Origin: Flavobacteriaceae bacterium
GTDB taxonomy: Bacteria > Bacteroidota > Bacteroidia > Flavobacteriales > Flavobacteriaceae
Assembly: GCA_017851655.1 (NCBI GenBank)
Contig: JAFMMH010000002.1
Location: forward strand, 813-64,812
DNA: 64,000 nucleotides
Reading direction: 5' to 3'
The notes below the pieces were generated by a model that searched no databases, was not told the origin of the DNA, and saw only the letters and a program-made list of their open reading frames with translations. Positions 11,264 to 60,914 of this stretch are shown piece after piece. Position numbers and translations under genes: made by a program. How positions within the stretch are numbered: the stretch's first letter is position 1; each line of letters opens with the position of its first letter.

Positions 11264-11264
11264 A

Positions 11265-38546: not shown

Positions 38547-38591
38547 AATCTTTAATGAATTTTAAATTTATGAAATCTTTCATTAATGAAT
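38547..38591. promoter_or_regulatory. two copies of AATCTTT(C)A(T)TAATGAAT in the divergent promoter region
   Basis: AATCTTTAATGAAT (38547-38560) and AATCTTTCATTAATGAAT (38574-38591). The second contains the 12-bp palindrome TTCATTAATGAA. Confidence 0.3.
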
Positions 38592-38939: not shown

Positions 38940-38961
38940 AAAAAACCCTTTTACATAAAAT

Positions 38962-38990
38962 AAAAAATGCGCTTAAAAGCGCATTTTTTA
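38962..38990. terminator. bidirectional intrinsic terminator
   Basis: AAAAAATGCGC-TTAAAA-GCGCATTTTTT. An A-run and a T-run flank a GC stem. Lies between convergent mini-ORF 3 and the 39007 lipoprotein gene. Confidence 0.6.
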
Positions 38991-39006
38991 TTAATTAAAA
39001 CTTCTT

Positions 39007-39378
39007 CTATTGTTTTATTCTTGTTCCTTCTAAATCAAACATACCCATTAAAGAGCCTGAAACAGTATCCTCCTGGATTGTAATGTCGAAATAAATATCA
39101 TAGCCCGCAGCATACGCTTCTATCGTAAAAACATTGTCTTGAAGTGTAGTGTCACCTACCTCAAATTCTACATCCTGCATTCCTTCTTTAGGTGAAATAG
39201 AAGCCGTGTAATTTTCCCCTTCTTTTGTAAGATTCAATAGCAGTGATAAATCTCCAATGTTATCAACTTCGAATACTGTCATTTCATACGATCCAACATA
39301 CGGATCACTTTTAATACTTTTCTGAACCCCACAGGAAAAGGTTAAAAATAGGGCAACTAAAGGAATTAATTTTTTCAT
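39007..39378 (-). CDS. hypothetical lipoprotein
   Basis: Lipobox LTFSCG. 123 aa. No recognisable family. Confidence 0.55.
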   Translation of the reverse strand: MKKLIPLVALFLTFSCGVQKSIKSDPYVGSYEMTVFEVDNIGDLSLLLNLTKEGENYTASISPKEGMQDVEFEVGDTTLQDNVFTIEAYAAGYDIYFDITIQEDTVSGSLMGMFDLEGTRIKQ

Positions 39379-39398: not shown

Positions 39399-39875
39399 TT
39401 ACTCTGTACTCTCTGCAACCAATTCAACGTCTTTATCCCAAACAGTGATCGCACCACTTTTTTGATCTATCCATGTCATTCTAGTGTCATTGTTTGAAAA
39501 TGAAATCGAATAGTTAATCACATTTGATCCTTGAACATATTGATAAAATCCGGTTTCTGGATCAATAGACCAAGTGTACACTGCATAGGAAGGACTTAAA
39601 CAACCTCTCGAATTGATATCTATGAATTCATAAATTGTTGTTACAATTTTTTCTGAAATTGAGGCAGTAAATGACATGCAAGCGTATTCAGGAATGAGTT
39701 CTACCAAATCAGATTTAATATCCTCCCAAATTGTTGCTGTACCATTTTCATCAGAAATAGAGTAAATACTCCATTCTCCGATAGACTTGTCTGGTACGAT
39801 TTCTTCTTTACTACAATTTGTGAAGGTTAGAAGAAAAGTCAATAAGGAAACTTTTAAAATTGATGGTAGTTTCAT
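39399..39875 (-). CDS. hypothetical lipoprotein
   Basis: Lipobox FTNCS. 158 aa. No recognisable family. Confidence 0.55.
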   Translation of the reverse strand: MKLPSILKVSLLTFLLTFTNCSKEEIVPDKSIGEWSIYSISDENGTATIWEDIKSDLVELIPEYACMSFTASISEKIVTTIYEFIDINSRGCLSPSYAVYTWSIDPETGFYQYVQGSNVINYSISFSNNDTRMTWIDQKSGAITVWDKDVELVAESTE

Positions 39876-39967
39876 GGTTTTTATTATTTGACGCTAAAAA
39901 TACAAAAAAAGCGGGGTTACTTTTAATTTTTATAAAATTAAAATGTGATTCCCTAATTAATCAACTT

Positions 39968-39983
39968 TATGAAATATTTCATA
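39968..39983. promoter_or_regulatory. 16-bp perfect palindrome TATGAAATATTTCATA (candidate operator)
   Basis: Perfect dyad ~95 nt upstream of the 39875 start. Outer arms TCAACT (39961-39966) and AGTTGA (39990-39995) extend it. Confidence 0.3.
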
Positions 39984-40466
39984 GAACAGAGTTGATCTTA
40001 AGATTAAGCGTTTTTGTTTAACGATTGATTAAAACTTTGCCTTGTCAAAACTTATTTTATAAACTTTTAGCAAGGAAAATGTCTGAAAACTTAATAATCG
40101 AACAAAAAATAAATTCACTTCACTTTTATTGATGAATCCCTACTTGAATCAAATAAACTCTAATGCTTCTCGAAAGAAGAAATACATCGTCCGATTATAA
40201 AAAAGGTGTTTTATCTTGGAGAGTGACACCAACTGTTTCATTAATCAAAATATCAAAGCTTCAGAAATAGGGATAAAATTCAAGATGGTCTATTTTCCAA
40301 AAAGTACAAGCTGTAAAATTCTAAAATTCCTCTCTTTCTAGAGTTATTTATGATTTGCTCTCACTACTTGAGAACTTATTTAACAAATATTTTTTACCTT
40401 TCTAAGAAATCAGTAACCAAAATCAATAAATCTTGATCTTTAATTAAGATTATTTAGAACTAATTA

Positions 40467-43400
40467 ATGAGGACTATTCAACTACTATTTCTGCTTTTAA
40501 TTTGCACCCAATGCCAATTAGATATTCCAGATTCGATTGCCCTTGAATTAGAAAATCTGCCAAATAAAATTGACTACAACTATCATGTAAAGCCAATTTT
40601 ATCTGACCGCTGCTATCAATGTCATGGTCCAGATGAAAAAACAAGAAAAGCTGGTTTAAGACTGGATCTAGAAAAAATTGCATTTTCACGTCTTGAAAGT
40701 GGGAATAAAGCTTTCTCGAAAGGAAGTCTTAACGGAAGTGAGAGTCTCCATCGCATACTTAATACTGATGCTGAAATTCAAATGCCTCCTCCTGAATCAA
40801 ACTTAAGTTTGACTTCAAAAGAAAAAGCTATTTTAATTAAATGGGTAGATCAAGGAGCCGAATGGAAAGAACATTGGTCCTTTATTCCTCCCAATAAAAA
40901 GAGCATCAAGTATTCCCAAGGCTTAGGTCTTATTGATCATTTTATTACTGAAAAACATCAAGAAAATAATCTGGACTTTTCAAAACCTGCATCAAAAGAG
41001 ACCCTAATTCGCAGAGTTTATTTTGACCTTACAGGATTGCCTCCAACAGTTGCTCAAGTTGAGGCTTTTCTTAATAACTCGAGTGAAGATGCATATTCAG
41101 ATTTGGTAGACAGATTACTCGATTCTGATGCCTATGCAGAGCGAATGGCCGTAGAATGGATGGATTTATCCCGTTATGCAGATTCTCATGGACTTCATGC
41201 AGATGGGCTTCGAACGATGTGGCCATGGAGGGACTGGGTTATTAAATCATTTAAAGAAAATATGCCTTATGACCAATTTGTGACCTGGCAACTCGCTGGT
41301 GATTTAATGCCCAATGCAACTATTGAACAAAAATTAGCCACTGCATTTAATCGTAATTCTCCAATGACTGCTGAAGGAGGCGTTATAGATGAAGAATGGA
41401 GATTAAATTATGTTTTCGATAGAACAGAAACCATGAGTACTGCTTTTCTTGGCCTAACCGTAGCTTGCGCAAAATGTCACGATCACAAATTTGATCCCGT
41501 CTCACAGAAAGATTATTATCAGCTTACCGCTTTTTTTAACAATATTCGAGAGTTAGGAATGACAGGTGATGACGGCGATTACGGCCCGCTATTACCCCTT
41601 CCAGATGAATCTACTAAAGAGCACCTCAACCGACTAGAAAGTACTATTTCTCAGATAGAAAAGGAGGTAGAACTCAATGCAAAGGAAATGGCCAACCTTC
41701 AAGATTATATCAATGAACTGCCCTCTGAATCTCAACTATATGAAAGCAGAGTAGGCTACTATCCTTTTGATAAAATCAGAAAAGCCCTTAAAAAAGATAA
41801 AACTGGACATCATTTTGTTGCAGATGACAATGAAAATGTAGGTTCACGACTAGCTCCTGTAGTGATACCCGGAATCAAAAACAATGCCCTTCGTTTTGAA
41901 CAGGATTATGACCGCCTATTTATTAGTAAAGAAATTCCAAATTTTGAATGGGTTGATTCATTTTCAGGAGGTGTTTGGATAAATACGGATCAACAAAATT
42001 CCCAGTTTAGACAGTTCATCATGGGAACTACAGGAGGAAAGAATAATTTATGGCGCGGATGGGATTTCTATCTCGATGGAGAAAATAAGCTAAACTTTAG
42101 ACTGATAAATGTGGCTCCTGGAAACATGATTCATGTAAAAGCTCCCGAAATTATCCCTACAGAGAAATGGAAACATCTTGCTTTTTCATACGACGGAAGT
42201 GGAAAAGCAAAAGGAGTCAAAATCTATATAGACGGAGAAAAAATCCCCTTAGAAAATTTAATAGACAATCTATATAAATCCATTAAACCAGTTTCTGCCA
42301 GTGGCATTAAAGAAGAAGATCGCCCAGTTTTAATAGGCAAAAGTTATGAGGGTTCTACAGGAGACAATGGGACATTTTCGGGGAGTATGGATGAGTTGAT
42401 GCTTTTTGAAAAAGAACTTAGTGGGCTGGAATTAAAACTTTTGTTTAATTCTTATAATGAAAACCCCATTCCTCCGGGTAGTGATTTAATAAAAGAGCAT
42501 TGGATTTCAAATCAACCTCAATCGATTGCTCTTAACAACAAATTAAAACAAAATCGTCAAGAATGGTTGAATACTTTTGCTCCGGTTACAGAAATTATGG
42601 TGATGGAAGAACTTCCTACTGTTCGAGAAACTTTTTTGTATAATCGAGGAGATTATAATGATCCCAGCTACAGTGTAGAAGCAGCTGTGCCAAACAAGCT
42701 CCCTGCTATGAGTCCCGATCTTCCTAAAAACAGATTGGGTTTGGCAAAATGGTTATTTAATAAAAAAAATCCGCTTACAGCTCGAGTTGCTGTTAATCGG
42801 TATTGGCAAATGATTTTTGGTCAAGGGTTAGTCAGAACTCCTACTGACTTTGGGGTTCAAGGTGAGCTCCCTAGTCATCCCAATCTTTTAGATGCTTTGG
42901 CATTGGATTTTATGGAAAATGATTGGGATATAAAACAATTGATCAAAAAAATGGTACTCTCCAAAACTTACCGTCAAACTTCAAAAACAAGTCCAGAACT
43001 ATTTGAAAAGGACCCCAATAATATTTTGCTAGCACGAAGTAATCGCTACAGACTCCCTGCCGAAATGATTCGTGACAATGCTTTAGCAACAAGTGGTTTG
43101 CTAATAAACCATGTAGGAGGTGAGAGTGTTAAACCCTACCAACCTGAGGGGCTTTGGAAAGAAAAAAGTACTTTTTCCCTGCGCCTCTATGATTACAAAA
43201 CAACAAAAGGGGATAGTCTGTATCGTAGAAGTTTATACACCTTTATTAGAAGAACATCACCTCCGCCTTCTATGATAGCTTTTGATGCTACTTCTAGAGA
43301 AATTTGTGCTGTTCAGCGTGAAAATACTTCAACCCCTCTTCAAGCGTTAATTCTCTTGAACGATATTCAATTTTTTGAGGCCTCAAGGGTATTGGCAGAA

Positions 43401-43679
43401 AGGATTCAACTGGAGGGAGGGACTAAAGTGAGTGATCAGATTCAATATGGATTTCGTCTGGCCACATCACGATTGCCAAATTCAAAAGAGCTGGATATAT
43501 TAATTGATCTTTATCAGACTCAATTGAATTATTATAAAAAAACTCCAAAAGCAGCATATAACACGATCCGTGTAGGCGAAAAACCTTTTAACACTAAACT
43601 AAACCCCATGAAAACAGCAGCGCTCACAATCGTTGCAAATACCCTACTAAACCAAAACGAAACTTTTGTAAAGTATTAG
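40467..43679 (+). CDS. PSCyt (haem c) / DUF1549 / LamG / DUF1553 multidomain protein
   Basis: Signal peptide. CYQCH at nt 40611-40625. LIRRVYFDLTGLPPT (DUF1549-like). LamG-like WKHLAFSYDGSGKAKGVKIYIDGEK. NRYWQMIFGQGLVRTPTDFG (DUF1553-like). Confidence 0.85.
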   Translation: MRTIQLLFLLLICTQCQLDIPDSIALELENLPNKIDYNYHVKPILSDRCYQCHGPDEKTRKAGLRLDLEKIAFSRLESGNKAFSKGSLNGSESLHRILNTDAEIQMPPPESNLSLTSKEKAILIKWVDQGAEWKEHWSFIPPNKKSIKYSQGLGLIDHFITEKHQENNLDFSKPASKETLIRRVYFDLTGLPPTVAQVEAFLNNSSEDAYSDLVDRLLDSDAYAERMAVEWMDLSRYADSHGLHADGLRTMWPWRDWVIKSFKENMPYDQFVTWQLAGDLMPNATIEQKLATAFNRNSPMTAEGGVIDEEWRLNYVFDRTETMSTAFLGLTVACAKCHDHKFDPVSQKDYYQLTAFFNNIRELGMTGDDGDYGPLLPLPDESTKEHLNRLESTISQIEKEVELNAKEMANLQDYINELPSESQLYESRVGYYPFDKIRKALKKDKTGHHFVADDNENVGSRLAPVVIPGIKNNALRFEQDYDRLFISKEIPNFEWVDSFSGGVWINTDQQNSQFRQFIMGTTGGKNNLWRGWDFYLDGENKLNFRLINVAPGNMIHVKAPEIIPTEKWKHLAFSYDGSGKAKGVKIYIDGEKIPLENLIDNLYKSIKPVSASGIKEEDRPVLIGKSYEGSTGDNGTFSGSMDELMLFEKELSGLELKLLFNSYNENPIPPGSDLIKEHWISNQPQSIALNNKLKQNRQEWLNTFAPVTEIMVMEELPTVRETFLYNRGDYNDPSYSVEAAVPNKLPAMSPDLPKNRLGLAKWLFNKKNPLTARVAVNRYWQMIFGQGLVRTPTDFGVQGELPSHPNLLDALALDFMENDWDIKQLIKKMVLSKTYRQTSKTSPELFEKDPNNILLARSNRYRLPAEMIRDNALATSGLLINHVGGESVKPYQPEGLWKEKSTFSLRLYDYKTTKGDSLYRRSLYTFIRRTSPPPSMIAFDATSREICAVQRENTSTPLQALILLNDIQFFEASRVLAERIQLEGGTKVSDQIQYGFRLATSRLPNSKELDILIDLYQTQLNYYKKTPKAAYNTIRVGEKPFNTKLNPMKTAALTIVANTLLNQNETFVKY

Positions 43680-43681
43680 GA

Positions 43682-45142
43682 ATGAATTGCAACGATGACC
43701 ATCACAATAAAAAATATACCCGAAGAGACTTTCTAACCCGAACCTCAATTGGAATGGGAGCCTTGTCGTTAGGAGGTTTGTTGGGGCCCTCACCCGTACT
43801 GGGAAAAGATCTGATTTCACAAATGATTCAGACTAGCGGAGCAGGATTACCACATTTTGTGCCTAAAGCTAAAAGAGTCATCTACCTTTTTCAAAGTGGC
43901 GCCCCCTCACAATTAGATCTTTTTGATCATAAGCCTTTACTCAATAAAATGAATGGGAAAGAACTCCCAGATAGTATCATGGGAACCCAACGTTTGACGG
44001 GTATGACGGCCGGACAAACAAGCTTTCCAATGGCAGGTTCAGTTTTTGATTTCAAACAATATGGACAGAGCGGAGCTTGGGTAAGTGAATTAATGCCATA
44101 TACTTCAAAAATTGTAGATGAATTATGCTTCATCAAATCCATGCATACCGATGCTATCAATCATGATCCTGCAGTAACTTTTCTACAAACTGGTTCTCAA
44201 CTACCTGGACGTCCCTCTATTGGTGCTTGGCTTAGTTATGGATTGGGAACAGACAATAAAAATCTTCCTGAATTTGTAGTACTATTAACCAAAGACAAAT
44301 ACGGCCAACCACTCTATTCAAGATTGTGGGGCAATGGATTTTTGCCCTCTCAGCATCAGGGAGTACAATTTCGTTCAGGTAAAGATCCAGTACTCTACCT
44401 TGATAATCCTCCTGGTGTGACTAAAGAAAGTAGAAGTTCACAATTACAACATCTCGGTGAACTCAATAAAATTCAACATCAAGATGTGGGAGATCCTGAA
44501 ATCCTTTCAAGGATGAAACAATACGAAATGGCCTTTAGGATGCAAACTTCTGTTCCAGAAGTTATGGACGTATCCGATGAGCCTGATTATATTTTCGACT
44601 TATATGGAAAAGACAGTAAGACACCCGGAACCTTCGCAGCAAACTGTCTTCTAGCTCGGAAACTAATTGAAAAAGATGTCAAATTTGTACAGCTTTATCA
44701 TCAGGGATGGGACATGCATGGAGACTTACCAAATCAGATGAAGATCCAATGTAAAGATACGGATCAAGCAACTGCAGGTCTTATACAAGACCTAAAACAA
44801 CGCGGCCTTTTAGACGATACATTGGTCATTTGGGGAGGTGAATTTGGAAGAACAAACTACTCGCAAGGACTCTTAACTCCTGAAAGTTTCGGAAGAGATC
44901 ACCATCCTCGCTGTTTTACAGTTTTCATGGCAGGAGCAGGTATAAAAAAAGGAATTACCATTGGAGCTACAGATGAGTTTGGGTTTAACATCAATGAACG
45001 ACCTGTTCATATTCATGATTTTCAGGCTACATTAATGCATTTACTCGGTATCAATCACGAAAAACTTACTTTTAAATTTCAAGGAAGACGCTACCGTCTT
45101 ACAGATGTACACGGTAAGGTAGTTAATGAGATTCTCAGTTAA
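43682..45142 (+). CDS. DUF1501 protein (sulfatase/alkaline-phosphatase-superfamily fold), Tat signal
   Basis: TRRDFLTRT twin-arginine leader. HQGWDMHGDL, GGEFGRT, and GRDHHP blocks. Confidence 0.85.
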   Translation: MNCNDDHHNKKYTRRDFLTRTSIGMGALSLGGLLGPSPVLGKDLISQMIQTSGAGLPHFVPKAKRVIYLFQSGAPSQLDLFDHKPLLNKMNGKELPDSIMGTQRLTGMTAGQTSFPMAGSVFDFKQYGQSGAWVSELMPYTSKIVDELCFIKSMHTDAINHDPAVTFLQTGSQLPGRPSIGAWLSYGLGTDNKNLPEFVVLLTKDKYGQPLYSRLWGNGFLPSQHQGVQFRSGKDPVLYLDNPPGVTKESRSSQLQHLGELNKIQHQDVGDPEILSRMKQYEMAFRMQTSVPEVMDVSDEPDYIFDLYGKDSKTPGTFAANCLLARKLIEKDVKFVQLYHQGWDMHGDLPNQMKIQCKDTDQATAGLIQDLKQRGLLDDTLVIWGGEFGRTNYSQGLLTPESFGRDHHPRCFTVFMAGAGIKKGITIGATDEFGFNINERPVHIHDFQATLMHLLGINHEKLTFKFQGRRYRLTDVHGKVVNEILS

Positions 45143-45154
45143 ATACGAATAAAA

Positions 45155-46207
45155 ATGAAAAAAAATAGAAGAAAATTTTTAAAACAAACTGTTGCTGCAG
45201 CTGGAGGATTAGCAGTTGTTCCCTTCCAAGATATCTTTGTGCATCGTAACACATCAAAAGTAGAAAATCCTATTGTAGGGCATGGAGATTTTACTTATCG
45301 TGTTGATAAAGACTGGGGCATTCAAGATTCTTCTCAATTTCCTGTGAATGATTGCCATGAAATGGTTTTAGATAAAAAAAACAGGATCTTTATGACCACC
45401 ACCCATCCAAAAAATAATATTCTAATTTATGACCGGTCAGGAAAAATACTTGACTCATGGGGGACAGACTATCCCGGAGCACATGGCCTTACTATAATAG
45501 AAGAGGGAGGGGAAGAATTTTTATTTATTACTGATCCAGAAACACATAAGGTTTGTAAGACGACTATCAACGGTAAGAAACTTCTTGAATTTTCAGCACC
45601 AAAAGAGGTTAAAGATTACAAAGAAGTGAATCAGTTCAAACCAACGGAAACTGCAGTTGCTCCAAATGGAGATATTTATATCGCTGATGGTTATGGTTTG
45701 GATTTTATCATGCAATATGACTCAAAAGGAAATTTTATTCGTCACTTTGGTGGCAAAGGGAAGGCAGAAAATCAATTTGACTGTTGTCATGGAATTACAA
45801 TTGACACTCGAGGAGGAAAAGCACCTACCTTACTAATTACTTCGAGGACCGCAAACTGTTTTAAACGTTTTACTTTAGACGGGAATCATATTGAAACCAT
45901 TTCTCTTCCTTCCTGTTATATTTGCAGACCAGTCCTAAAAAACGATCTGCTTTATTTTGCAGTAATTGTAACGAAAGATTGGGGCACCTATGATGGTATG
46001 CTTGCCGTTTTAGATCAAAATAATAAAGTAATCTCAATGCCCGGGGGAAGCTCCCCTAGCTACAAGAACGGATTGCTTGAAGCCCCTGTATACGATCAAA
46101 AAACATTTCTTAACCCACATGATGTCTGCATAGATGACGATGAAAACATTTACATTCCTCAGTGGAATTCTGGGAAAACATATCCCATTAAACTTCATCG
46201 TGTTTAA
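45155..46207 (+). CDS. Tat-signal six-bladed beta-propeller (NHL-repeat-like) protein
   Basis: NRRKFLKQT leader. Repeated segments such as ...IYIADGYG..I..YD..G.F...FG. resemble NHL / amidating-lyase-type propellers. Confidence 0.6.
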   Translation: MKKNRRKFLKQTVAAAGGLAVVPFQDIFVHRNTSKVENPIVGHGDFTYRVDKDWGIQDSSQFPVNDCHEMVLDKKNRIFMTTTHPKNNILIYDRSGKILDSWGTDYPGAHGLTIIEEGGEEFLFITDPETHKVCKTTINGKKLLEFSAPKEVKDYKEVNQFKPTETAVAPNGDIYIADGYGLDFIMQYDSKGNFIRHFGGKGKAENQFDCCHGITIDTRGGKAPTLLITSRTANCFKRFTLDGNHIETISLPSCYICRPVLKNDLLYFAVIVTKDWGTYDGMLAVLDQNNKVISMPGGSSPSYKNGLLEAPVYDQKTFLNPHDVCIDDDENIYIPQWNSGKTYPIKLHRV

Positions 46208-46209
46208 AT

Positions 46210-47565
46210 ATGATCTTCCTTGAATTAAGCACATTTATTGGTAGATTACACCCTTTGGTAGTTCATCTGCCAATCGGATTTTTAGTTCTTGCTTTAATTT
46301 TTGATCTTCCTCTAGTCAAAAAGAGAAACAGTGCCGTTTCACTAATTTGGTTTTTTGCATCGATATTTTCAATTGTCGCTGTTGTATTGGGGCTTCTCTT
46401 AGCGCAAAATGGACACTATATTGAACAACAGCTTTCACTGCATCAATGGTCTGGAATTATTTTAGTCTTTCTTTGTTTTATTGGGTGGATGTCACGGTCA
46501 CCCTTCTTTAGGTTTCCAGATTTTATTCGAAAGGTGAATAATGGGATTGTTATACTAACCCTAATTATTGTTGGTCATTATGGAGGAACGTTAACCCATG
46601 GTGAAAATTATCTATTTGTTTATGCTCCTGAATGGCTCAGCTCAAAGCTTATAAAAGAGAAAACTGATCCAAAGTTTGCTGATGTTTCTTTAGACAGTGT
46701 CTATGTGTATCAAGACATGATTCAGCCATTGTTCAACGCAAAATGTGTGTCCTGTCACAATAACGAAGCAAAAAGAGGAGGTCTTGATATGACAAATGTG
46801 AAAGGGCTCTTTAAAGGTGGAAATAGCGGAGCCGCAATTGTTCAAAAAAATTTAGCTAAAAGCTTGATTTATAACCGAATTACCAAAGTACAATCTGATG
46901 TGAAGTTTATGCCACCTGCTGGAATACCAATGACTTACTCAGAAATTCAGTTAATTGAATGGTGGATTCAAGCTGGAGCTTCAATAGAAACTCCTCTTTC
47001 AAAACAAACATTAAATTCGGAAATCCAAACACTTTTATTAAAAAAATATGCGCTCGACACTGAGGAAAAACCGTGGTTTAAAAAAGTAATTTTGACTCCT
47101 CTTCAAGAGTCTGAGCTTGCACGATTTGATCAGAATAAACTTGAATGGAGAAAATTAGCTTTGGATAATCCCTTGCTTGATGTTCGCTTTCAAGGGAAAG
47201 AAATCAGTAAAGAAGTTCTTTCTGTTCTAGAGCAAAATGCACCTTATATAACATGGTTAAACTTAAGTGGAACTATTCTCGAAAAGGATGCTCTTAAAGT
47301 CATCGCTAAAATGGAAAATTTAACCCGTCTTTATCTCCAAAAAAGCAGCCTCCCAATTGGAGATTTGAGTCTATTAGAATCCCTAAGTCATCTCGAAATA
47401 CTTAACCTTCACAGCACTTCTGCAAATCAGAAAGTCTTTGAAGTAGCAAAACAACTCCCCGCTTTGAAAAAGCTCTATTTATGGAATACAAAATTGAGCA
47501 ATGATCAAATTGAAGCGCAAAAGTCTTTTTTTCCTAATACTGATTTAATTGGAGGCTTAGAATAG
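46210..47565 (+). CDS. membrane protein: DUF2231-like 4-TM domain + cytochrome c (PSCyt1-like) domain + leucine-rich repeats
   Basis: HPLVVHLPIGFLVLALIFDL. CVSCH at nt 46744-46758. C-terminal LxxLxLxxT repeats (LTRLYLQKSSL, LEILNLHSTS, LKKLYLWNTKL). Confidence 0.75.
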   Translation: MIFLELSTFIGRLHPLVVHLPIGFLVLALIFDLPLVKKRNSAVSLIWFFASIFSIVAVVLGLLLAQNGHYIEQQLSLHQWSGIILVFLCFIGWMSRSPFFRFPDFIRKVNNGIVILTLIIVGHYGGTLTHGENYLFVYAPEWLSSKLIKEKTDPKFADVSLDSVYVYQDMIQPLFNAKCVSCHNNEAKRGGLDMTNVKGLFKGGNSGAAIVQKNLAKSLIYNRITKVQSDVKFMPPAGIPMTYSEIQLIEWWIQAGASIETPLSKQTLNSEIQTLLLKKYALDTEEKPWFKKVILTPLQESELARFDQNKLEWRKLALDNPLLDVRFQGKEISKEVLSVLEQNAPYITWLNLSGTILEKDALKVIAKMENLTRLYLQKSSLPIGDLSLLESLSHLEILNLHSTSANQKVFEVAKQLPALKKLYLWNTKLSNDQIEAQKSFFPNTDLIGGLE

Positions 47566-48342
47566 GGTTAATTTTATTTCTTTTGGAACAGCAAACTGTC
47601 TTAAATAAAGCGTTTTGCCCATTTGAGCACGCTCTTTTTTGATTCTAGCTACAACTTCAGAAGGATACTGACTCTTATGACATAATAAGGCTTGATAAGC
47701 CTTGTCGTAATGAGATTCTGTAAATGAAATTTGAGTATTCAAATAAGACCGTTCTTGGCCTCTTAAAGTTTTAGCTCTTGCAGTATCTAGAAAATCTTTT
47801 GGAACACCAAAATAAAATAAATCCATTGGCTTATTCCATTTTTGAGATACAAAAACTTGAGTAACAGAAGCCCCTACTAATCGGTGATCCATATGAGAAG
47901 TTGCTCCATCAGGTCCCCAAGTGATTATTGCATCAGGAGAAACCTGATCAATAATTTCTTTCAGCTCTAGAATTAAACTTTGAACATGAGGTATATGACC
48001 GTCAAACCCCTCGGCTGATTTTAATTGATCGTGATAGTCTAAATGAATTAACTTCACTCCCAATACCTGTGCTGCACATTCCATTTCCCCTCTTCGAATT
48101 GCTGCAAGTCCATCACCAGCTTCATAATCTGTATATTCGTTTACTCCTAATCGACCATCTGTAGCAATAACTAAGGTTACCTCAACACCTTCTTCAACAG
48201 CTTTCACTAAAATAGGAGCTACAGACTGTTCGTCATCGGGATGAGCAAAAATTGCTAATAGTTTTTTAGGAGATTCTTGTGCAGCAGCTACAGCACATAC
48301 AAAACAGCTGTAAATAAGTATAAAAGCTTTTATTTTTTTCAT
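47557..48342 (-). CDS. PIG-L/LmbE family deacetylase, secreted
   Basis: Signal peptide. AHPDDE motif (AIFAHPDDEQ). HMDH block. Confidence 0.85.
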   Translation of the reverse strand: MKKIKAFILIYSCFVCAVAAAQESPKKLLAIFAHPDDEQSVAPILVKAVEEGVEVTLVIATDGRLGVNEYTDYEAGDGLAAIRRGEMECAAQVLGVKLIHLDYHDQLKSAEGFDGHIPHVQSLILELKEIIDQVSPDAIITWGPDGATSHMDHRLVGASVTQVFVSQKWNKPMDLFYFGVPKDFLDTARAKTLRGQERSYLNTQISFTESHYDKAYQALLCHKSQYPSEVVARIKKERAQMGKTLYLRQFAVPKEIKLTLF

Positions 48343-50098: not shown

Positions 50099-51488
50099 AG
50101 TGCAATGGGGTATAGTAGGCATGGGTGTAATGGGAACCAGCCTCAGCAGGAATTTTGCTGGAAAGGGTATTCAGCTGGCTTTATTTAATCGTCGTTTAGA
50201 AGGAATCGAAGAGGATGTAGCTTTAACAAAAAAACACCACTATCCAGAATTGCATCAAGCACAAGCATACGAAGATTTAGTACAATTTACTGCGGCTTTA
50301 GAATCCCCTAGAAAAATCCTGCTCATGCTTCCAGCAGGCAAACCAACAAGTCTTATTTTAGACCAACTTACACCACTACTTTCAGAGGGTGATATTGTAA
50401 TTGACGGAGGAAACACTCATTATCAAGAAACAGAAAATCGCGCTTCTAAGCTCTCCAAAAAAGGAATTTTATTTTTGGGAATTGGTGTTTCAGGAGGGGA
50501 AGCGGGCGCTTTAAAAGGTCCTTCACTCATGGCTGGAGGAGATCAAAAGGCGTATGAAATCGTCAAAAAAGACTTGTTTCAAATTGCTGCAAAAAACAGC
50601 AAAGGAAATCCATGTTGTGCCTATTTTGGATCAGGAGGTGCCGGTCATTATGTTAAAATGGTACATAACGGAATTGAATATGCTGAGATGCAATTACTAG
50701 CTGAGGTATATGCACTGAGTCATCACAGCAAGATTCAACCCACACTAGAGGAATGGAATAGTACGGCAAGTAAAAGTTACCTTTTAGAAATTACTGCTGC
50801 ACTTTTAGCATATCAGGAAGATAACATGCCATTTATCGAAAAAATTGAAGACCAAGCGTCTAACAAAGGTACTGGTGCTTGGGCTACTGCAGCAGGTACA
50901 ACTTTAGGTTATCCCAATAACCTGATGTCCAGTGCACTTCATGCGCGCTATATTTCCTCTTTTAAAGAAGATAGAATTCAGTTTGCCAAACAATTCAATT
51001 CCGAGTTGTCAAAAACTAAAATCAGTTTCTCTGAACTCAAAAAAAGTTACGATTTATCACGATGGATTAATCATCATCAAGGGTTTGAAATGCTTGATTT
51101 AGCTGCCAAAGAATATAACTGGAAGCTTAATTTAAGTGAAGTAGCTTCGGTATGGGCAGAGGGCTGTATTATAAAATCCGAACTTATGGATTTTTGTATC
51201 ACACTCTTTAAAAAGGAAAAATCTATTCTGTTAAGTGAAGACTTTAAAAAACTATTAGAAGAGGGAAAAGATGCATGGAAAAATACAATTCTACAGACCG
51301 TAGAAAATGAAATTCCTGTACTTTCTATGCAGGCAGCGTGGTCTTATTTTGTCGCAATGAAAACAAAAAAAAGTACTGCTAATATCATCCAAGCACAACG
51401 AGACTATTTCGGAGCTCATGGATTTAACCGTACGGATCAAGAAAATAGTGAACTACTACACGGGCCTTGGAACAAAGATAAGCTCTAG
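50088..51488 (+). CDS. gnd: 6-phosphogluconate dehydrogenase (decarboxylating)
   Basis: GIVGMGVMG, GVSGGEAGALKGPSLMAGG, and GAGHYVKMVHNGIEYAEMQ blocks. Confidence 0.9.
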   Translation: MTNKVQWGIVGMGVMGTSLSRNFAGKGIQLALFNRRLEGIEEDVALTKKHHYPELHQAQAYEDLVQFTAALESPRKILLMLPAGKPTSLILDQLTPLLSEGDIVIDGGNTHYQETENRASKLSKKGILFLGIGVSGGEAGALKGPSLMAGGDQKAYEIVKKDLFQIAAKNSKGNPCCAYFGSGGAGHYVKMVHNGIEYAEMQLLAEVYALSHHSKIQPTLEEWNSTASKSYLLEITAALLAYQEDNMPFIEKIEDQASNKGTGAWATAAGTTLGYPNNLMSSALHARYISSFKEDRIQFAKQFNSELSKTKISFSELKKSYDLSRWINHHQGFEMLDLAAKEYNWKLNLSEVASVWAEGCIIKSELMDFCITLFKKEKSILLSEDFKKLLEEGKDAWKNTILQTVENEIPVLSMQAAWSYFVAMKTKKSTANIIQAQRDYFGAHGFNRTDQENSELLHGPWNKDKL

Positions 51489-52903
51489 TCTATCCTTCCT
51501 ACAGGGCGAACTTCAGACCCTTTAATTCCCGTAAGACGATCTCCTAAAACTCCTCTTACTGAGTCGGCAATTTTTGAGATTTTAGCAACCCACTCCGGAT
51601 GTGCATCTGCGATATTTTCTTTTTCTTGAGGATCTGAATCTAAATTATACAATTCCGCTTTTTTAATTTCATTCATCTCATAGGGAATAGGGAAACCATC
51701 ACTAGTTCCTTGTTTCCCGTTTAAACTCCTATAGGTATGGGGAACATATAATTTCCATTCCTTATGTCTTACTGCATGCAATTCATTTGTACGGTAATAA
51801 AAGAAGAAATTAGTATGAGGCGATTGGATACTCGATCCCTTCAATAAGGGCACTAATGAAGCACCATCAATTTTTTTCTCTGGTAATTGGCTCTGAGTAA
51901 ACTCTGCAAGAGTAGGTAACCAGTCAATTCCCATAGCAGGTGCATCAATTCGAGTATTGGGTTTTATTTCCTTTGGGTAACGTACAATTCCTGGAACACG
52001 GTGCCCCCCTTCCCAATTGGTCCCTTTTCCTTCTCTAAAAATTCCTGAAGACCCAGAATGACCCCCATAGGAAAGCCAAGGACCATTGTCAGAAGTAAAG
52101 ACAACAATCGTGTTGTCATCCAAACCTTCTTCTTTAAGTGTTTTTAAAATCCTACCAACAGAATGATCTATTTCATGAATCACATCTCCATACAACCCTC
52201 TATCCTGAGTTTTTTGAAATATTTCTGCTGCAAATAATGGGACATGCGGTTGGGGGTGAGGTAGATAAACAAAAAAAGGCGCCTCTTTATTCTTTTTAAT
52301 AAAGGCGATTGCTTTTTCTGTAAGCGCATTTGTTAAAAAAGTTTGATCCTCCAAAACGCGAAGGGGCGTTTCATTCTCATAAAGAAAAATATCTGGAAAA
52401 TTAAATACCGTACCCTGTTGTGGATGCTTAGGCCACATATCATTTGAATAAAGGATGCCGTAAAACTCATCAAAACCGTGATTACGAGGTAAAAATTTTG
52501 GGGCATCCCCTAAATGCCATTTGCCAAAAATCCCTGTCTTATAACCCCGTTCTTTGAGCAGCTCGGCTAAGGTAGTTTCGTCTGGATTAAGCCCCACTTT
52601 AGAACCAGGACTATAGGCATTGTGAATTCCTATCCTATCTGGATAACAGCCTGTAAGTATAGAAGCACGAGATGCAGAACATACTGGCTGTGTAGCATAA
52701 TACGATGTAAATAGGGCTCCTTCGGAAGCCATCTGATCCAGGTGAGGTGTACTGATGTCTGATGCTCCATACGCCCCTAGATCGCCATAACCTTGATCAT
52801 CAGTTAATATAAAAACGATATTCGGAGGGTGCTCTTCTTTAGGCTGATTACAATTCAGTAGAAGAAGTGCTCCAAACAGAAGTAAAAAGGGTTTCATGAC
52901 CAA
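51485..52903 (-). CDS. formylglycine-dependent sulfatase
   Basis: NIVFILTDDQGYGD and CSASRASILTG (C-x-A-x-R) motifs. Signal peptide. Confidence 0.9.
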   Translation of the reverse strand: MVMKPFLLLFGALLLLNCNQPKEEHPPNIVFILTDDQGYGDLGAYGASDISTPHLDQMASEGALFTSYYATQPVCSASRASILTGCYPDRIGIHNAYSPGSKVGLNPDETTLAELLKERGYKTGIFGKWHLGDAPKFLPRNHGFDEFYGILYSNDMWPKHPQQGTVFNFPDIFLYENETPLRVLEDQTFLTNALTEKAIAFIKKNKEAPFFVYLPHPQPHVPLFAAEIFQKTQDRGLYGDVIHEIDHSVGRILKTLKEEGLDDNTIVVFTSDNGPWLSYGGHSGSSGIFREGKGTNWEGGHRVPGIVRYPKEIKPNTRIDAPAMGIDWLPTLAEFTQSQLPEKKIDGASLVPLLKGSSIQSPHTNFFFYYRTNELHAVRHKEWKLYVPHTYRSLNGKQGTSDGFPIPYEMNEIKKAELYNLDSDPQEKENIADAHPEWVAKISKIADSVRGVLGDRLTGIKGSEVRPVGRID

Positions 52904-55455: not shown

Positions 55456-55630
55456 AATCTATAGTTTGAATCGATAGTTTTTACCAATCATATAAAATAC
55501 AGAATGATAATCCTTAGATGAAGGGTTTTCAATGATTGAATTATGATTTTACAGTGGTAATTTTAAATTTGTTTTTTTAAAAATACAAAAACTCAAATAA
55601 CATTTGAACATTTGTAGCTATTTATGACAT

Positions 55631-56758
55631 TTAATCGAAAAGCAAACGTGCAGTAGCCTCTCCTATCTTACTTCCAATTGCGATTCCCATACCTCCCAAA
55701 CGAATCCCAAGTGCTACATTATCTCCTTCTTTTTTAACAATCGGCATTTTACTTTTCCCAAATCCCATAATCCCAGACCATTCCATTTCGATCTCAAATG
55801 GTTGTTCTGGAAGTATAAAACTTCTGAGATCAGCGACTAATTTTTCTTTTATTATTGGATTAATCCCAAAAGTGGCAGTGGTTTCAGTCTTAAAATCCAA
55901 CGCTCTCCCCCCTCCTAGAAGAATTCTGTTTTCGATGTTTCGGAAATAATAGTATCCTGCGTTGTAATTAAACGTTCCTTTTAATTTTAAGTTATCAATA
56001 GGGTTTGTCAAAAGAACCATTCCCCTTCCTGGATTCATATCGATATGGGGCAAAATATTCAGTGAAAAAGCATTGGTGCAAATTGCTAATTTGCGTGTTT
56101 TAAATCTGAGGGTTTGCCCTTTAATTTGAATTTCTAGCAGATTCCCTTGATTGTTTTTAGAGAAACCACTGACTTCTGTCTGTGTGAAAAAAAATATATT
56201 CCCTCTATTGACTTTATCCCTCAACGCGTTCATCATTTTCCCTGTATGAATTTGTCCTTCGAAAGGGTTTTCGATCAAATGCTTGATTTGATTTTTTTCA
56301 AATCCAAAAGTTTCAATTTTAGAATTATTTAAACTGAATATATTTTTATTGAATATTGGGGATAATAAACTGTTGAGTTCATCCATTTTTTCAAATTCCA
56401 CAGGGGTGTCTTCAAAAAAAAGTTCATGCCCTCCAAAGGGACGATAATCCATTAACTCATCTCCCAGTGTTTCTCTTAAAAGATTCAGTCCATTCAAACG
56501 TAATTGAAGTAAATCAATCATTGCAGCGTCCTCCATGCTTTTTCTGTCCTCTAACAATTCCGTGAGGGTTCCAAAGCATGCAAAACCTGCATTTTTGGTA
56601 CTTGCGCCTGATGGAAAAAGTCCACGTTCTAAAATAGCAATCCGGGCATTAGGATATTTGTTTCGATAAGTTAAAGCACAAAACATTCCGGTGATTCCAC
56701 CTCCCAGAACAAGAAGATCATAATCGAGCATTTCGGATTTTTCCCAATAGCTTAGCAT
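55631..56758 (-). CDS. FAD-dependent oxidoreductase (DAO family)
   Basis: YDLLVLGGGITGM dinucleotide-binding N-terminus. 375 aa. Confidence 0.8.
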   Translation of the reverse strand: MLSYWEKSEMLDYDLLVLGGGITGMFCALTYRNKYPNARIAILERGLFPSGASTKNAGFACFGTLTELLEDRKSMEDAAMIDLLQLRLNGLNLLRETLGDELMDYRPFGGHELFFEDTPVEFEKMDELNSLLSPIFNKNIFSLNNSKIETFGFEKNQIKHLIENPFEGQIHTGKMMNALRDKVNRGNIFFFTQTEVSGFSKNNQGNLLEIQIKGQTLRFKTRKLAICTNAFSLNILPHIDMNPGRGMVLLTNPIDNLKLKGTFNYNAGYYYFRNIENRILLGGGRALDFKTETTATFGINPIIKEKLVADLRSFILPEQPFEIEMEWSGIMGFGKSKMPIVKKEGDNVALGIRLGGMGIAIGSKIGEATARLLFD

Positions 56759-56762
56759 TCTA

Positions 56763-57104: not shown

Positions 57105-57105
57105 T

Positions 57106-58422: not shown

Positions 58423-58432
58423 AGAGTTATAA

Positions 58433-59212: not shown

Positions 59213-59217
59213 AGTTT

Positions 59218-60908: not shown

Positions 60909-60914
60909 TTTCTT

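What the first reader, a model, noticed from the sequence alone, without database searches (positions are those of the whole stretch)
40467..47565. Translationally coupled four-gene operon of uncharacterised envelope proteins (PSCyt/DUF1549-LamG-DUF1553, Tat-DUF1501, Tat beta-propeller, DUF2231-cytochrome c-LRR)
Seen:
- Four plus-strand ORFs are separated by only 2, 12 and 2 nt (43679/43682, 45142/45155, 46207/46210). A 590-nt AT-rich non-coding region precedes them.
- Gene 1 (1070 aa) has a signal peptide and one CxxCH haem c motif (CYQCH, nt 40611-40625). It also has a DUF1549-like block, an inserted LamG/concanavalin-like segment, and a DUF1553-like C-terminus.
- Gene 2 (486 aa) has a twin-arginine leader (TRRDFLTRT) and DUF1501 blocks (GGEFGRT, GRDHHP). 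That implies a sulfatase/alkaline-phosphatase-type fold. I see no C/S-x-P/A-x-R formylglycine motif.
- Gene 3 (350 aa) has a second Tat leader (NRRKFLKQT) and NHL-like propeller repeats.
- Gene 4 (451 aa) joins a 4-TM DUF2231-like domain (HPLVVHLPIGF), a second single CxxCH (CVSCH, nt 46744-46758) and C-terminal leucine-rich repeats.

Established: the DUF1549/DUF1553 + DUF1501 pair is a recurrent, highly paralogous pair in Planctomycetota, Verrucomicrobiota and Bacteroidota. To my knowledge it has no experimentally assigned function.

Inference: the set comprises two mono-haem c domains, two Tat-exported (folded or cofactor-loaded) partners, and a membrane anchor with an LRR interaction module. 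This looks like a dedicated envelope complex that couples electron transfer to a hydrolase or oxidoreductase. The LamG domain and the neighbouring sulfatase, deacetylase and oxidoreductase genes suggest a glycan substrate.
Basis: partly seen in the sequence, partly recalled or inferred. Interest (0 to 1): 0.7.

Follow-up and report, generated by a model that had tools for sequence, protein, structure and literature searches.

The report
Conserved four-gene periplasmic cytochrome–enzyme module
Four tightly packed genes encode what looks like a membrane-wired electron-transfer enzyme complex of unknown function that recurs across marine, freshwater and soil Bacteroidota, and this compact version could make a large uncharacterised protein family experimentally tractable.

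Summary
Four + strand ORFs sit exactly as described, with gaps of 2, 12 and 2 nt, and Pfam recovers every predicted domain. One correction: gene 1 has two CxxCH motifs (CYQCH and CAKCH), so the operon has three.

New results:
- In 80 species-level genomes found through gene 4, 72 have the gene 1/gene 2 pair beside it, 47 also have gene 3, and 40 keep the exact order.
- Flanking genes outside the window's own clade are housekeeping genes, so this is a self-contained module, not a PUL.
- Gene 3 is PAL-like. The three Zn histidines and the catalytic Tyr of peptidyl-α-hydroxyglycine lyase align with invariant H110, H212, H322 and Y180.
- Genes 4 and 3 occur fused into one protein in other lineages, one of them a Planctomycetota MAG.
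- Where gene 1 lacks LamG, gene 4 carries discoidin/CHB_HEX modules instead.
- Gene 2 is a sulfatase-superfamily relative without a formylglycine motif.

Best reading: a quinol-linked periplasmic redox complex of two modules (1+2 and 3+4) acting on a bound ligand, probably a glycan. The chemistry is unknown. It is a new variant of the known, uncharacterised PSCyt/DUF1501 module.

The parts
39876..40466 (.). AT-rich non-coding region upstream of gene 1. It is shared with the divergent small lipoprotein-like ORF at 39399-39875 (-) and presumably holds the promoter.
   Evidence: 591 nt at 25.9% GC. There is no Rfam match, sigma-70-like sites are at chance level, and there is no Bacteroidota-type TAnnTTTG on the + strand. 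The promoter itself was not identified.
40467..43679 (+). Gene 1: probable lipoprotein of 1070 aa with PSCyt1 (haem c), PSCyt2/DUF1549, LamG and PSD1/DUF1553.
   Evidence: Pfam. Cys16 is invariant or nearly so. 38-82% identical across loci.
40611..40796 (+). Gene 1 PSCyt1 domain, with CYQCH (40611-40625) and candidate axial Met106 in the QMPP motif.
   Evidence: Pfam 1e-12. C49, C52, H53, M106 and P107 are invariant.
40932..41549 (+).
   Evidence: Pfam 1e-86. C334, C337, H338, D339, H340, K341 and D343 are invariant. No PDB sequence relative, even by profile search.
41943..42431 (+). Gene 1 LamG / concanavalin-like insertion, an optional ligand-binding module.
   Evidence: Laminin_G_3 1e-16. 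This is the only part of gene 1 with a PDB sequence match (4qvs, 3e-5). It is absent from the ~790 aa gene 1 homologues of distant clusters.
42729..43508 (+). Gene 1 PSD1/DUF1553 domain.
   Evidence: Pfam 9e-98. Many Arg, Trp, Pro and Cys947 residues are invariant. No PDB relative.
43682..45142 (+). Gene 2: Tat-exported DUF1501 protein of 486 aa, a diverged sulfatase/alkaline-phosphatase-superfamily member without a formylglycine motif. It is the most conserved of the four genes.
   Evidence: DUF1501 1e-156 and Tat motif TRRDFL. 57-95% identical across loci. hhalign against a sulfatase alignment gives 88% probability. Weak Pfam Sulfatase hit. No [CS]x[PA]xR motif.
45155..46207 (+). Gene 3: Tat-exported six-bladed NHL propeller of 350 aa with a PAL-like metal site (H110, Y180, H212, H322, plus R231 and H68).
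   Evidence: NHL / DUF5128 and the Tat motif NRRKFL. PAL (3fvz) profile match E = 6e-14. Residue-level alignment to PAL. Invariant residues.
46210..47565 (+). Gene 4: membrane anchor of 451 aa with a 4-TM DUF2231 domain (46210-46599), PSCyt1 haem c (46744-46923, CVSCH at 46744-46758) and LRR (about 47140-47550).
   Evidence: Pfam. AF2 mean pLDDT 83.7 with four long helices. H14, H19, H78, H123, H130, C179, C182, H183 and M234 are invariant. LRR confirmed. Its last 9 nt overlap the convergent PIG-L gene at 47557-48342.

Best explanation
The four genes encode one periplasmic, membrane-anchored redox enzyme system built from two modules.

Module B (genes 4 + 3):
- Gene 4 sits in the inner membrane through a four-helix DUF2231 domain. 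All five of its invariant histidines lie in the periplasmic half of the helices. This suggests one haem b or metal site next to a quinol/quinone site (inferred).
- That site passes electrons to or from gene 4's own periplasmic haem c domain.
- The LRR domain, or discoidin-type domains in other lineages, docks partners or substrate.
- The immediate partner is gene 3, a Tat-exported six-bladed propeller that keeps the His3/Tyr(/Arg) metal site of peptidyl-α-hydroxyglycine α-amidating lyase (PAL).

Module A (genes 1 + 2):
- This is the widespread PSCyt/DUF1501 pair.
- Gene 1 is a lipoprotein with one canonical haem c domain, a second invariant CxxCHDHK site and a ligand-binding LamG insert.
- Gene 2 is a very conserved Tat-exported sulfatase-fold protein that has lost the formylglycine nucleophile. 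Its many invariant His, Asp and Glu residues suggest a metal site on that scaffold (inferred).

Proposed mechanism (inferred, least certain step): electrons move between the quinone pool and the gene 1/gene 2 catalytic site through the haems of genes 4 and 1. The substrate, held by LamG, is probably a glycan or another envelope or dissolved polymer, and it is oxidatively modified. Where gene 3 is present, it cleaves the labile hydroxylated intermediate, as PAL does after PHM in the peptide-amidating enzyme PAM.

Shown: the domain content, the conserved linkage, the gene 4-gene 3 fusion and the conserved candidate ligands. Not shown: any cofactor, the direction of electron flow, the substrate, or transcription as one unit.
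For: Linkage:
- 72 of 80 loci found through gene 4 have gene 2 (and gene 1 where the contig allows) adjacent.
- Among loci with full flanks, 49 of 53 have the pair and 35 of 53 have gene 3.
- Of 30 loci found through gene 3 with enough flank, 21 have gene 2, 19 have gene 4, and 17 have genes 1, 2 and 4.
- The order 1>2>3>4 persists in contigs with GC from 0.36 to 0.57.

Fusion of genes 4 and 3:
- Five representatives (P0451, P0454, P0455, P0458, P0461) join DUF2231, PSCyt1 and, in some, LRR or F5/8C to a gene 3-like propeller. P0461 is from a Planctomycetota MAG.
- Against P0451, gene 4 scores 4e-59 and gene 3 scores 5e-45. All candidate ligand residues are kept in all five.

Complementary binding modules:
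- Gene 1 length and gene 4 length correlate at r = -0.85 over 77 loci. All 59 long gene 1 proteins pair with a short gene 4, and 12 of 18 short gene 1 proteins pair with a long gene 4.
- The extra gene 4 domains are CHB_HEX_C/Fn3_assoc and F5/8 type C.

Haem c:
- Three invariant CxxCH motifs, and invariant Met-Pro in both PSCyt1 domains.

Membrane module:
- DUF2231 scores above its cut-off. The TM domain alone scores 22.7 bits against Cytochrom_B561, whose cut-off is 23.
- AF2 predicts four helices with good confidence.

PAL-like site in gene 3:
- PAL chain positions 94, 163, 199 and 295 correspond to H585, Y654, H690 and H786. The offset of 491 comes from the 3fvz and 5wm0 matches.
- They align with H110, Y180, H212 and H322, which are invariant in 21 homologues and in the five fusions.
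- PAL is a Zn-dependent six-bladed propeller lyase (PMC6529398).

Gene 2:
- hhalign against sulfatases gives 88%.
- A greedier alignment puts invariant H161 (HDPA) at the formylglycine position and E387 at the sulfatase metal Asp.
- All 50 top Foldseek hits are alkaline-phosphatase-superfamily proteins, although the model is poor.
- Twin-arginine motifs are invariant in genes 2 and 3.
Against: - No cofactor, activity or transcript was measured.
- The gene 2 model is unreliable (pLDDT 41). The alignment that places H161 at the nucleophile position has low local confidence.
- PAL itself is a Zn lyase, not a redox enzyme, so fusion to a cytochrome is not explained by simple PAL chemistry.
- Gene 3 is dispensable: it is absent from about a third of clusters. 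Close gene 3 homologues (61-71% identical) also occur alone among housekeeping genes.
- Gene 4 also occurs alone (8 of 80 loci, for example Zobellia laminariae).
- The Cytochrom_B561 hit is just under its cut-off, and the one-sided position of the histidines does not fit a two-haem transmembrane wire.
- Proteobacterial DUF1501 proteins pair with DUF1800 proteins (PMC5122149). Whether those partners carry haem c domains was not examined here. If they do not, DUF1501 chemistry need not be redox.
- The counts come from related genomes and are not phylogenetically independent.
Confidence: 0.45

Rival explanations
1. Hydrolytic scavenging system. Gene 2 is a metal-dependent sulfo- or phospho-esterase of the alkaline-phosphatase superfamily. 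Gene 1 is its substrate-binding or targeting partner through LamG. The haem domains only stabilise, sense redox state or regulate, and genes 3 and 4 are accessory.
For: - Gene 2 relates to sulfatases.
- Sulfatase genes lie within 6 kb in 15 of 71 loci.
- DUF1501 pairs with DUF1800 proteins in Proteobacteria (PMC5122149).
- PSCyt genes often neighbour sulfatases in Verrucomicrobia MAGs (PMC5615132).
Against: - There is no formylglycine motif or other obvious nucleophile motif.
- Three CxxCH motifs and their Met ligands are invariant over wide divergence.
- A dedicated membrane cytochrome is linked to the pair in 72 of 80 loci.
- Ten of the 15 sulfatase-adjacent loci belong to the window's own clade.
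Confidence: 0.2
2. Respiratory or detoxifying oxidoreductase for a small periplasmic molecule, either a terminal reductase or a dehydrogenase feeding the quinone pool. The LamG, LRR and discoidin modules serve only for assembly or localisation, and no glycan is involved.
For: - The pattern of a Tat-exported catalytic subunit, a Sec-exported c-type cytochrome and a membrane quinol-linked anchor is the standard layout of periplasmic respiratory enzymes (established knowledge).
- The module sits among housekeeping genes rather than in PULs.
- There is a single copy per locus in many genomes.
Against: - The binding-type module is always kept on one subunit or the other.
- No known redox cofactor-binding family (Mo, FeS, Cu, flavin) was detected in genes 2 or 3.
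Confidence: 0.2
3. Envelope-maintenance function. The complex modifies one of the cell's own envelope components, such as a lipid-linked glycan, peptidoglycan or a secreted or gliding-related polymer, rather than a nutrient.
For: Recurrent neighbours are murF-like ligases, a gldJ-like FGE-domain gene, lptD-like and PAP2 genes. Gene 1 is a probable lipoprotein. PAL-type chemistry produces amides (PMC6529398).
Against: These neighbours are lineage-specific synteny and are not translationally coupled to the module. The module is missing from many related genomes and is found on contigs of widely differing GC content from marine, freshwater and soil samples.
Confidence: 0.1
4. The adjacency is fortuitous: four unrelated envelope genes that happen to be packed together in this genome.
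For: None beyond the general compactness of bacterial genomes.
Against: The order is conserved in at least 40 species-level genomes with unrelated flanks. Genes 4 and 3 are fused in other lineages, one of them a Planctomycetota MAG. Binding modules are complementary between genes 1 and 4.
Confidence: 0.01

Closest known systems
PSCyt1/PSCyt2/PSD1 + DUF1501 genetic module of Planctomycetota, Verrucomicrobiota and Lentisphaerota (Kamneva et al. 2012, PMC3542564; He et al. 2017, PMC5615132)
   Same: A Tat-type DUF1501 protein lies next to a PSCyt1/PSCyt2/PSD1 protein that may carry Laminin_G_3 or F5/8 type C. Both papers propose membrane-associated electron transport, and the function is unknown. 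Kamneva's most complex four-gene cluster also contains a second PSCyt1 protein joined to a β-propeller (PSCyt1/WD40).
   Different: Here the second cytochrome has a DUF2231 four-helix membrane anchor and an LRR domain. The propeller is a separate Tat-exported PAL-like NHL protein, not WD40. There is no PPC-domain protein and no Big_2. The host is a Bacteroidota genome, usually with one such cluster per locus rather than dozens of paralogues.
Peptidylglycine α-amidating monooxygenase system of animals (PHM + PAL, supplied with reducing equivalents via cytochrome b561)
   Same: Gene 3 aligns with PAL over at least 163 residues and keeps the three Zn histidines and the catalytic Tyr. Gene 4's membrane domain scores at the edge of the Cytochrom_B561 model. 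The logic of an electron-supplying membrane cytochrome together with a lyase is parallel.
   Different: No PHM (Cu2 monooxygenase) domain is present, and genes 1 and 2 are unrelated to PHM. Gene 4 has a c-type haem and only four helices, with all its histidines on one side of the membrane. The PAL-like protein is exported through Tat. No amidated product is known.
S1 formylglycine-dependent sulfatases / alkaline-phosphatase superfamily
   Same: The profile-profile match covers the C-terminal core (TDxxxxxLxxLKxxGxxxxTLVIxxx-D/E-xG). A greedier alignment extends over residues 120-476. All Foldseek hits belong to this superfamily.
   Different: There is no C/S-x-P/A-x-R motif. An invariant His (HDPA) sits at the aligned nucleophile position, and the β1 Asp-Asp metal ligands are not recovered. 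Export is through Tat. The protein is always paired with a cytochrome partner. No PDB relative is detectable by sequence.
DUF1800-DUF1501 operons of Proteobacteria (noted beside bacterial chitin synthase genes, PMC5122149)
   Same: A Tat-type DUF1501 protein is encoded next to a larger partner of unknown function in a conserved two-gene operon.
   Different: The partner here is PSCyt1/PSCyt2/PSD1 with haem c motifs. Homology between PSD1 and DUF1800 was not tested.
ScyF (NHL-repeat protein of the scytonemin cluster)
   Same: NCBIfam's best named match for gene 3 (8e-11 over 79 residues). Both are exported NHL propellers of unknown role that accompany oxidative chemistry.
   Different: The score is far below the family cut-off (41.7 against 350), so gene 3 is not a member. 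There is no PEP-CTERM tail.

Membership tests
PSCyt/DUF1501 module (Kamneva 2012) | A DUF1501 protein with a twin-arginine leader | tested here: met
   PF07394 at 1e-156. TIGR01409 scores 19.6 against a cut-off of 16.7. RR is invariant in 18 homologues.
PSCyt/DUF1501 module (Kamneva 2012) | An adjacent protein with the PSCyt1 + PSCyt2 + PSD1 architecture (LamG optional) | tested here: met
   All four Pfam families score above their cut-offs, and the gene lies 2 nt upstream of gene 2.
c-type cytochrome (PSCyt1 domains of genes 1 and 4) | A CxxCH haem-attachment motif with a distal ligand, in an exported domain | tested here: met
   CYQCH/M106 and CVSCH/M234 are invariant. Export is inferred from the lipobox and signal peptide of gene 1 and from the TM topology of gene 4. 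Haem attachment itself cannot be tested with these tools.
c-type cytochrome (PSCyt2 domain of gene 1) | The CxxCH motif binds haem | not testable with these tools
   CAKCHDHKFD is invariant, but the motif could equally be a Cys2His2-type metal site. There is no structural relative.
Alkaline-phosphatase / sulfatase superfamily (gene 2) | The shared α/β core fold | tested here: inconclusive
   hhalign gives 88% (E = 3e-6) over the C-terminal core and 71% over residues 120-476. Pfam Sulfatase scores E = 0.026. All 50 top Foldseek hits are from the superfamily, but TM-scores are 0.13-0.27 on a model with pLDDT 41.
S1 sulfatases (gene 2) | A C/S-x-P/A-x-R formylglycine motif | tested here: not met
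   The regular expression finds none. The aligned position holds invariant H161.
PAL (peptidyl-α-hydroxyglycine α-amidating lyase) (gene 3) | A six-bladed NHL β-propeller | tested here: met
   Pfam NHL and DUF5128. Profile match to 3fvz at 6e-14 as one collinear stretch, 87-249.
PAL (gene 3) | Zn ligands His585, His690 and His786, and catalytic Tyr654 | tested here: met
   They align with H110, H212, H322 and Y180 (numbering offset). These residues are invariant in 21 homologues and 5 fusions. The identity of the PAL residues is from my own knowledge of the 3FVZ literature.
PAL (gene 3) | Substrate-binding Arg706, and lyase activity on α-hydroxyglycine | tested here: inconclusive
   Invariant R231 lies 19 residues after H212, compared with 16 in PAL, but it falls outside the printed alignment. 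Activity is not testable here.
Cytochrome b561 (gene 4 TM domain) | Passes the Pfam model, and has two bis-His haem sites on opposite membrane faces | tested here: not met
   The score is 22.7 bits against a cut-off of 23. There are four helices rather than six, and all five invariant His lie in the periplasmic half by the AF2 helices and topology reasoning.
DUF2231 (gene 4) | Pfam PF09990 above the gathering score | tested here: met
   34.7 bits against 26.4. The family has no known function, and only one paper mentions it.
Polysaccharide utilisation locus (PUL) | An adjacent SusC/SusD pair and CAZymes conserved with the genes | tested here: not met
   A TonB-dependent receptor lies downstream in only 6 of 71 loci. 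The most recurrent flanking genes are housekeeping genes.

The most novel reading that the evidence does not exclude
The module is a bacterial, membrane-wired counterpart of the peptide-amidating enzyme system. A b561-like / c-type cytochrome (gene 4) draws electrons from the quinol pool. A previously unrecognised oxygen-activating enzyme, built on a sulfatase scaffold with a cytochrome partner (genes 2 + 1), hydroxylates a bound substrate. A PAL-like metallo-lyase (gene 3) then breaks the resulting carbinolamide or hemiacetal. The result would be periplasmic oxidative N- or O-dealkylation or cleavage of glycans or peptides. If so, it would assign a first chemistry to the very large PSCyt/DUF1501 families.
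Probability: 0.12. Interest if true: 0.9.

Novelty: new variant of a known kind. Interest (0 to 1): 0.62.

Why it matters
PSCyt1/PSCyt2/PSD1 and DUF1501 proteins are among the most expanded uncharacterised families in Planctomycetota and Verrucomicrobiota, and they also occur in Bacteroidota. They were flagged in 2012 as a conserved electron-transport-like module, and I found no functional study since.

This locus shows a compact version of that module, usually one cluster per locus. It adds two informative parts: a membrane cytochrome that could link the pair to the quinone pool, and a propeller with a recognisable catalytic site (PAL-like).

The same four genes are present in cultured strains, which makes genetics and biochemistry feasible. 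Examples are Maribacter algarum, Maribacter flavus, Eudoraea adriatica, Galbibacter mesophilus, Echinicola pacifica, Flexithrix dorotheae and Marinoscillum furvescens. The fusion and domain-swap evidence also says which proteins to test for interaction first.

Tried and rejected
- PDB sequence searches. Genes 1 and 2 gave nothing as single sequences. The gene 2 profile gave nothing. The gene 1 profile matched only through LamG.
- AF2 of gene 2. The permitted alignment (at least 75% identity) gave an unusable model with pLDDT 41. I treat its Foldseek result only as weak, consistent evidence.
- Foldseek with the good gene 4 model returned only LRR hits, so it says nothing about the DUF2231 domain.
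- The C-terminal 150 aa of gene 3 alone gave no PDB hit, so Arg706 could not be mapped.
- A literature search for the PAL residue numbers found nothing in the held library.
- Regulatory signals. There is no Rfam family, sigma-70-like and terminator-like sites are at chance level, and no TAnnTTTG lies upstream.
- A 14-nt palindrome is shared by the two nearby promoter regions (4 matches against 0.8 expected), but it is absent from all 164 related loci, so I did not build on it.
- A single Pfam scan of 150 neighbouring proteins exceeded the size limit. I replaced it with BLAST clustering plus representative scans.
- I rejected the idea that the module is part of a PUL or tied to the gluconate/6PGD genes. 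That synteny is clade-specific.

Full report
**Observation**

The gaps between them are 2, 12 and 2 nt. A 591-nt stretch of 25.9% GC precedes them.

Pfam recovers every predicted family above its curated cut-off:
- Gene 1: PSCyt1, PSCyt2/DUF1549, Laminin_G_3 and PSD1/DUF1553.
- Gene 2: DUF1501, at 1e-156.
- Gene 3: NHL / six-bladed propeller.
- Gene 4: DUF2231 and PSCyt1. The LRR hits are weak in Pfam, but a profile search of the PDB confirms them (E = 6e-24), and so does Foldseek.

Both twin-arginine leaders pass TIGR01409. Gene 2 has no C/S-x-P/A-x-R motif.

One correction is needed. Gene 1 has a second CxxCH, CAKCH at nt 41466-41480, inside PSCyt2. It is part of an invariant C-x-x-C-H-D-H-K-x-D block, so the operon carries three CxxCH motifs. 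Gene 1's conserved Cys16 also suggests that it is a lipoprotein.

**Is the four-gene set real?**

Gene 4 homologues all share the DUF2231 + PSCyt1 (+ LRR) architecture. The named ones come from Bacteroidota.

A profile scan of one genome per species matched at least 585 stretches that encode relatives. I analysed the best 80 loci by tblastn:
- 72 of 80 have gene 2 next to gene 4, with gene 1 as well where the contig allows.
- 47 of 80 also have gene 3.
- 40 of 80 show the exact order 1>2>3>4.
- Among the 53 loci with full flanks, 49 have the pair and 35 have gene 3.
- Variants exist: 1-2-4, 1-2-4-3, 4-1-2, divergent 2-1/4, and tandem 1-1-2-4.
- Eight loci have gene 4 alone.

I also searched metagenomes starting from gene 3. 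Of 30 loci with enough flank, 21 have gene 2, 19 have gene 4, 17 have genes 1, 2 and 4, and 8 have gene 3 alone.

The order 1>2>3>4 persists on contigs with GC from 0.36 to 0.57. These counts are not phylogenetically independent, but the flanks differ widely.

**Genomic context**

Only the window's own clade (L003-L014) shares the PIG-L, GFO/IDH/MocA, gluconokinase-like, 6PGD, sulfatase and GH109-like neighbours.

Elsewhere the recurrent neighbours are murF-like ligases, a gldJ-like FGE-domain gene, purA, fur, relA/spoT and lptD-like genes. TonB-dependent receptors appear in 6 of 71 loci.

The module is therefore self-contained and is not part of a PUL.

**Gene 3**

Sequence and profile searches of the PDB hit TRIM-type NHL domains repeat by repeat. 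They hit the PAL domain of peptidylglycine α-amidating monooxygenase as one collinear stretch (3fvz, 6e-14 with the profile).

In the printed alignment, PAL chain positions 94, 163, 199 and 295 align with gene 3 residues H110, Y180, H212 and H322. The full-length PAM entry 5wm0 gives an offset of 491, so these positions are His585, Tyr654, His690 and His786. To my knowledge these are PAL's three Zn ligands and its catalytic tyrosine. PAL as a Zn-dependent six-bladed propeller lyase is described in PMC6529398.

These four residues are invariant in 21 homologues, as are R231, D178, W337 and the blade-1 His68. Gene 3 is therefore best described as a Tat-exported PAL-like metallo-propeller.

**Fusion of genes 4 and 3**

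An exhaustive HMMER search with gene 3 found 193 representatives at E ≤ 1e-30. Five of them carry the gene 3-like propeller at the C-terminus of a protein whose N-terminus is DUF2231 + PSCyt1, in some with LRR or F5/8 type C as well (P0451, P0454, P0455, P0458, P0461). P0461 is annotated from a Planctomycetota MAG.

BLASTP of gene 4 against P0451 gives 4e-59 over residues 9-440. Gene 3 gives 5e-45 over residues 30-338. All candidate ligand residues of both parts are retained in all five fusions.

This Rosetta-stone fusion argues that genes 3 and 4 act together physically. The 2-nt junction between them in the window agrees with that.

**Gene 4**

AF2 gives a confident model (mean pLDDT 83.7) with four long helices, a small helical haem c domain and an LRR solenoid.

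Invariant residues are H14, H19, H78, H123, H130, C179, C182, H183 and M234. The haem c domain must be periplasmic, and the positive-inside rule fixes the loops. On that reasoning all five histidines lie in the periplasmic half of the bundle (inference).

The TM domain alone scores 22.7 bits against Cytochrom_B561, just under the cut-off of 23. I read this as a single haem b or metal site near a periplasm-side quinol site. It is not a two-haem transmembrane wire.

**Gene 2**

Gene 2 is the most conserved protein of the four, at 57-95% identity. The ranges for the others are 38-82% (gene 1), 42-86% (gene 3) and 33-64% (gene 4).

Evidence on its fold:
- There is no PDB relative by sequence or profile.
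- hhalign against a sulfatase alignment built from the window and related loci gives 88% probability over the C-terminal core. The sulfatase metal Asp (SDNG) aligns with E387 (GGEFG).
- A greedier alignment (71%) covers residues 120-476 and puts invariant H161 (HDPA) at the formylglycine cysteine position. Local confidence there is low.
- The AF2 model failed (pLDDT 41) because only close homologues were permitted as input. Even so, all 50 top Foldseek hits were alkaline-phosphatase-superfamily proteins, with low TM-scores.

Membership of the superfamily is likely. The classical nucleophile is absent.

**A binding module that moves between subunits**

In the distant clusters gene 1 is about 790 aa and lacks LamG. 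Gene 4 there is about 700 aa, with added CHB_HEX_C/Fn3_assoc and F5/8 type C domains.

Over 77 loci the two lengths correlate at r = -0.85. All 59 long gene 1 proteins pair with a short gene 4, and 12 of 18 short gene 1 proteins pair with a long gene 4.

This ties gene 1 and gene 4 to one complex. It also suggests that the complex usually carries a carbohydrate-type binding module. This supports a bound, possibly glycan, ligand better than the gene neighbourhood does.

**Literature**

The two-gene module (DUF1501 with PSCyt1/PSCyt2/PSD1, sometimes with LamG) was described in PVC bacteria in 2012. [quoted passage not shown] That paper's four-gene variant contains a PPC-domain protein and a PSCyt1/WD40 protein (PMC3542564).

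Verrucomicrobial MAG work noted CBM-bearing PSCyt genes near sulfatases (PMC5615132). DUF1800-DUF1501 operons occur in Proteobacteria (PMC5122149).

I found no functional study, and only one paper that even mentions DUF2231.

**Interpretation**

The best-supported reading is a periplasmic, membrane-anchored redox enzyme system of two modules, genes 1 + 2 and genes 3 + 4, joined through gene 4's cytochrome.

The parallel with the animal amidating system is a lead, not a result. In that system a membrane cytochrome supplies electrons, PHM hydroxylates and PAL cleaves. No PHM-like domain is present here, PAL is not itself redox-active, and gene 3 is dispensable in a third of clusters.

Rival readings remain open: hydrolytic scavenging, a small-molecule respiratory enzyme, and envelope maintenance. 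Chance adjacency is excluded.

**Verdict**

This is a new variant of a known but uncharacterised kind of module. Its value is that it offers a tractable entry point, in cultured strains, to the function of the PSCyt/DUF1501 families.

Noticed in passing
window 38570-38583 and 39969-39982: A 14-nt palindrome, ATGAAATnTTTCAT, occurs in both AT-rich promoter regions flanking the small upstream ORFs: upstream of the GH109-like gene and upstream of gene 1. There are 4 strand matches against 0.8 expected, but none in the 164 related loci.
   Followed up: partly
window 39007-39378 (-) and 39399-39875 (-): Two small ORFs (123 and 158 aa) have lipoprotein-like leaders (…LTFSCG, …FTNCSK) and no Pfam family. 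They are conserved just upstream of the cluster in the window's clade only (40-80% identity in L003-L014).
   Followed up: partly
window 38959-38992: A perfect 16-nt inverted repeat (AATAAAAAATGCGCTT / AAGCGCATTTTTTATT) sits just past the 3' end of the 123-aa ORF and looks like a bidirectional terminator. It underlies a sub-threshold Rfam TD-2 hit (34.3 bits against 48.7).
   Followed up: partly
window 47557-47565: The last 9 nt of gene 4 overlap the 3' end of the convergent PIG-L deacetylase gene (47557-48342, -). The same tail-to-tail overlap is seen in L003, L005 and relatives.
   Followed up: partly
window 51485-52903 (-): An S1-type sulfatase with a C-S-A-S-R (Cys-type, Ala variant) formylglycine motif. 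It was used here as the reference for the profile comparison with gene 2. A sulfatase lies within 6 kb of the module in 15 of 71 loci, mostly in the window's clade.
   Followed up: partly
L001 (Zobellia laminariae), 8941-11371: An orphan gene 4 homologue with about 1 kb of apparently non-coding DNA upstream and no genes 1-3. It sits at the gldJ-like / murF-like position where related genera carry the full cluster, which suggests loss of the partner genes.
   Followed up: no
L019, L023, L075: Two full-length gene 1 paralogues (51-57% identical to the window's gene 1) lie in tandem before a single gene 2 and gene 4. This would fit gene 1 as the variable, specificity-giving subunit and gene 2 as the constant one.
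   Followed up: no
L097 7986-9559: A stand-alone gene 3 homologue (61% identity) is followed after 2 nt by a SOUL haem-binding protein gene, downstream of menaquinone-type biosynthesis genes (UbiA, MenC-like, AMP-binding).
   Followed up: partly
L068: A 5.6-kb contig carrying gene 2 and gene 4 homologues is labelled as a Limnohabitans (Betaproteobacteria) MAG. All other named hits are Bacteroidota, so the contig is probably mis-binned.
   Followed up: no
window 52909-61697 (-): Downstream block: a DUF4953 Met-zincin (848 aa), a DAO-family oxidoreductase and an MFS transporter. By synteny with L003 there are also rhaM-like mutarotase, SDR and amidohydrolase_2 genes. It looks like a deoxy-sugar (fucose or rhamnose type) catabolic set, unrelated in distribution to the four-gene module.
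   Followed up: partly
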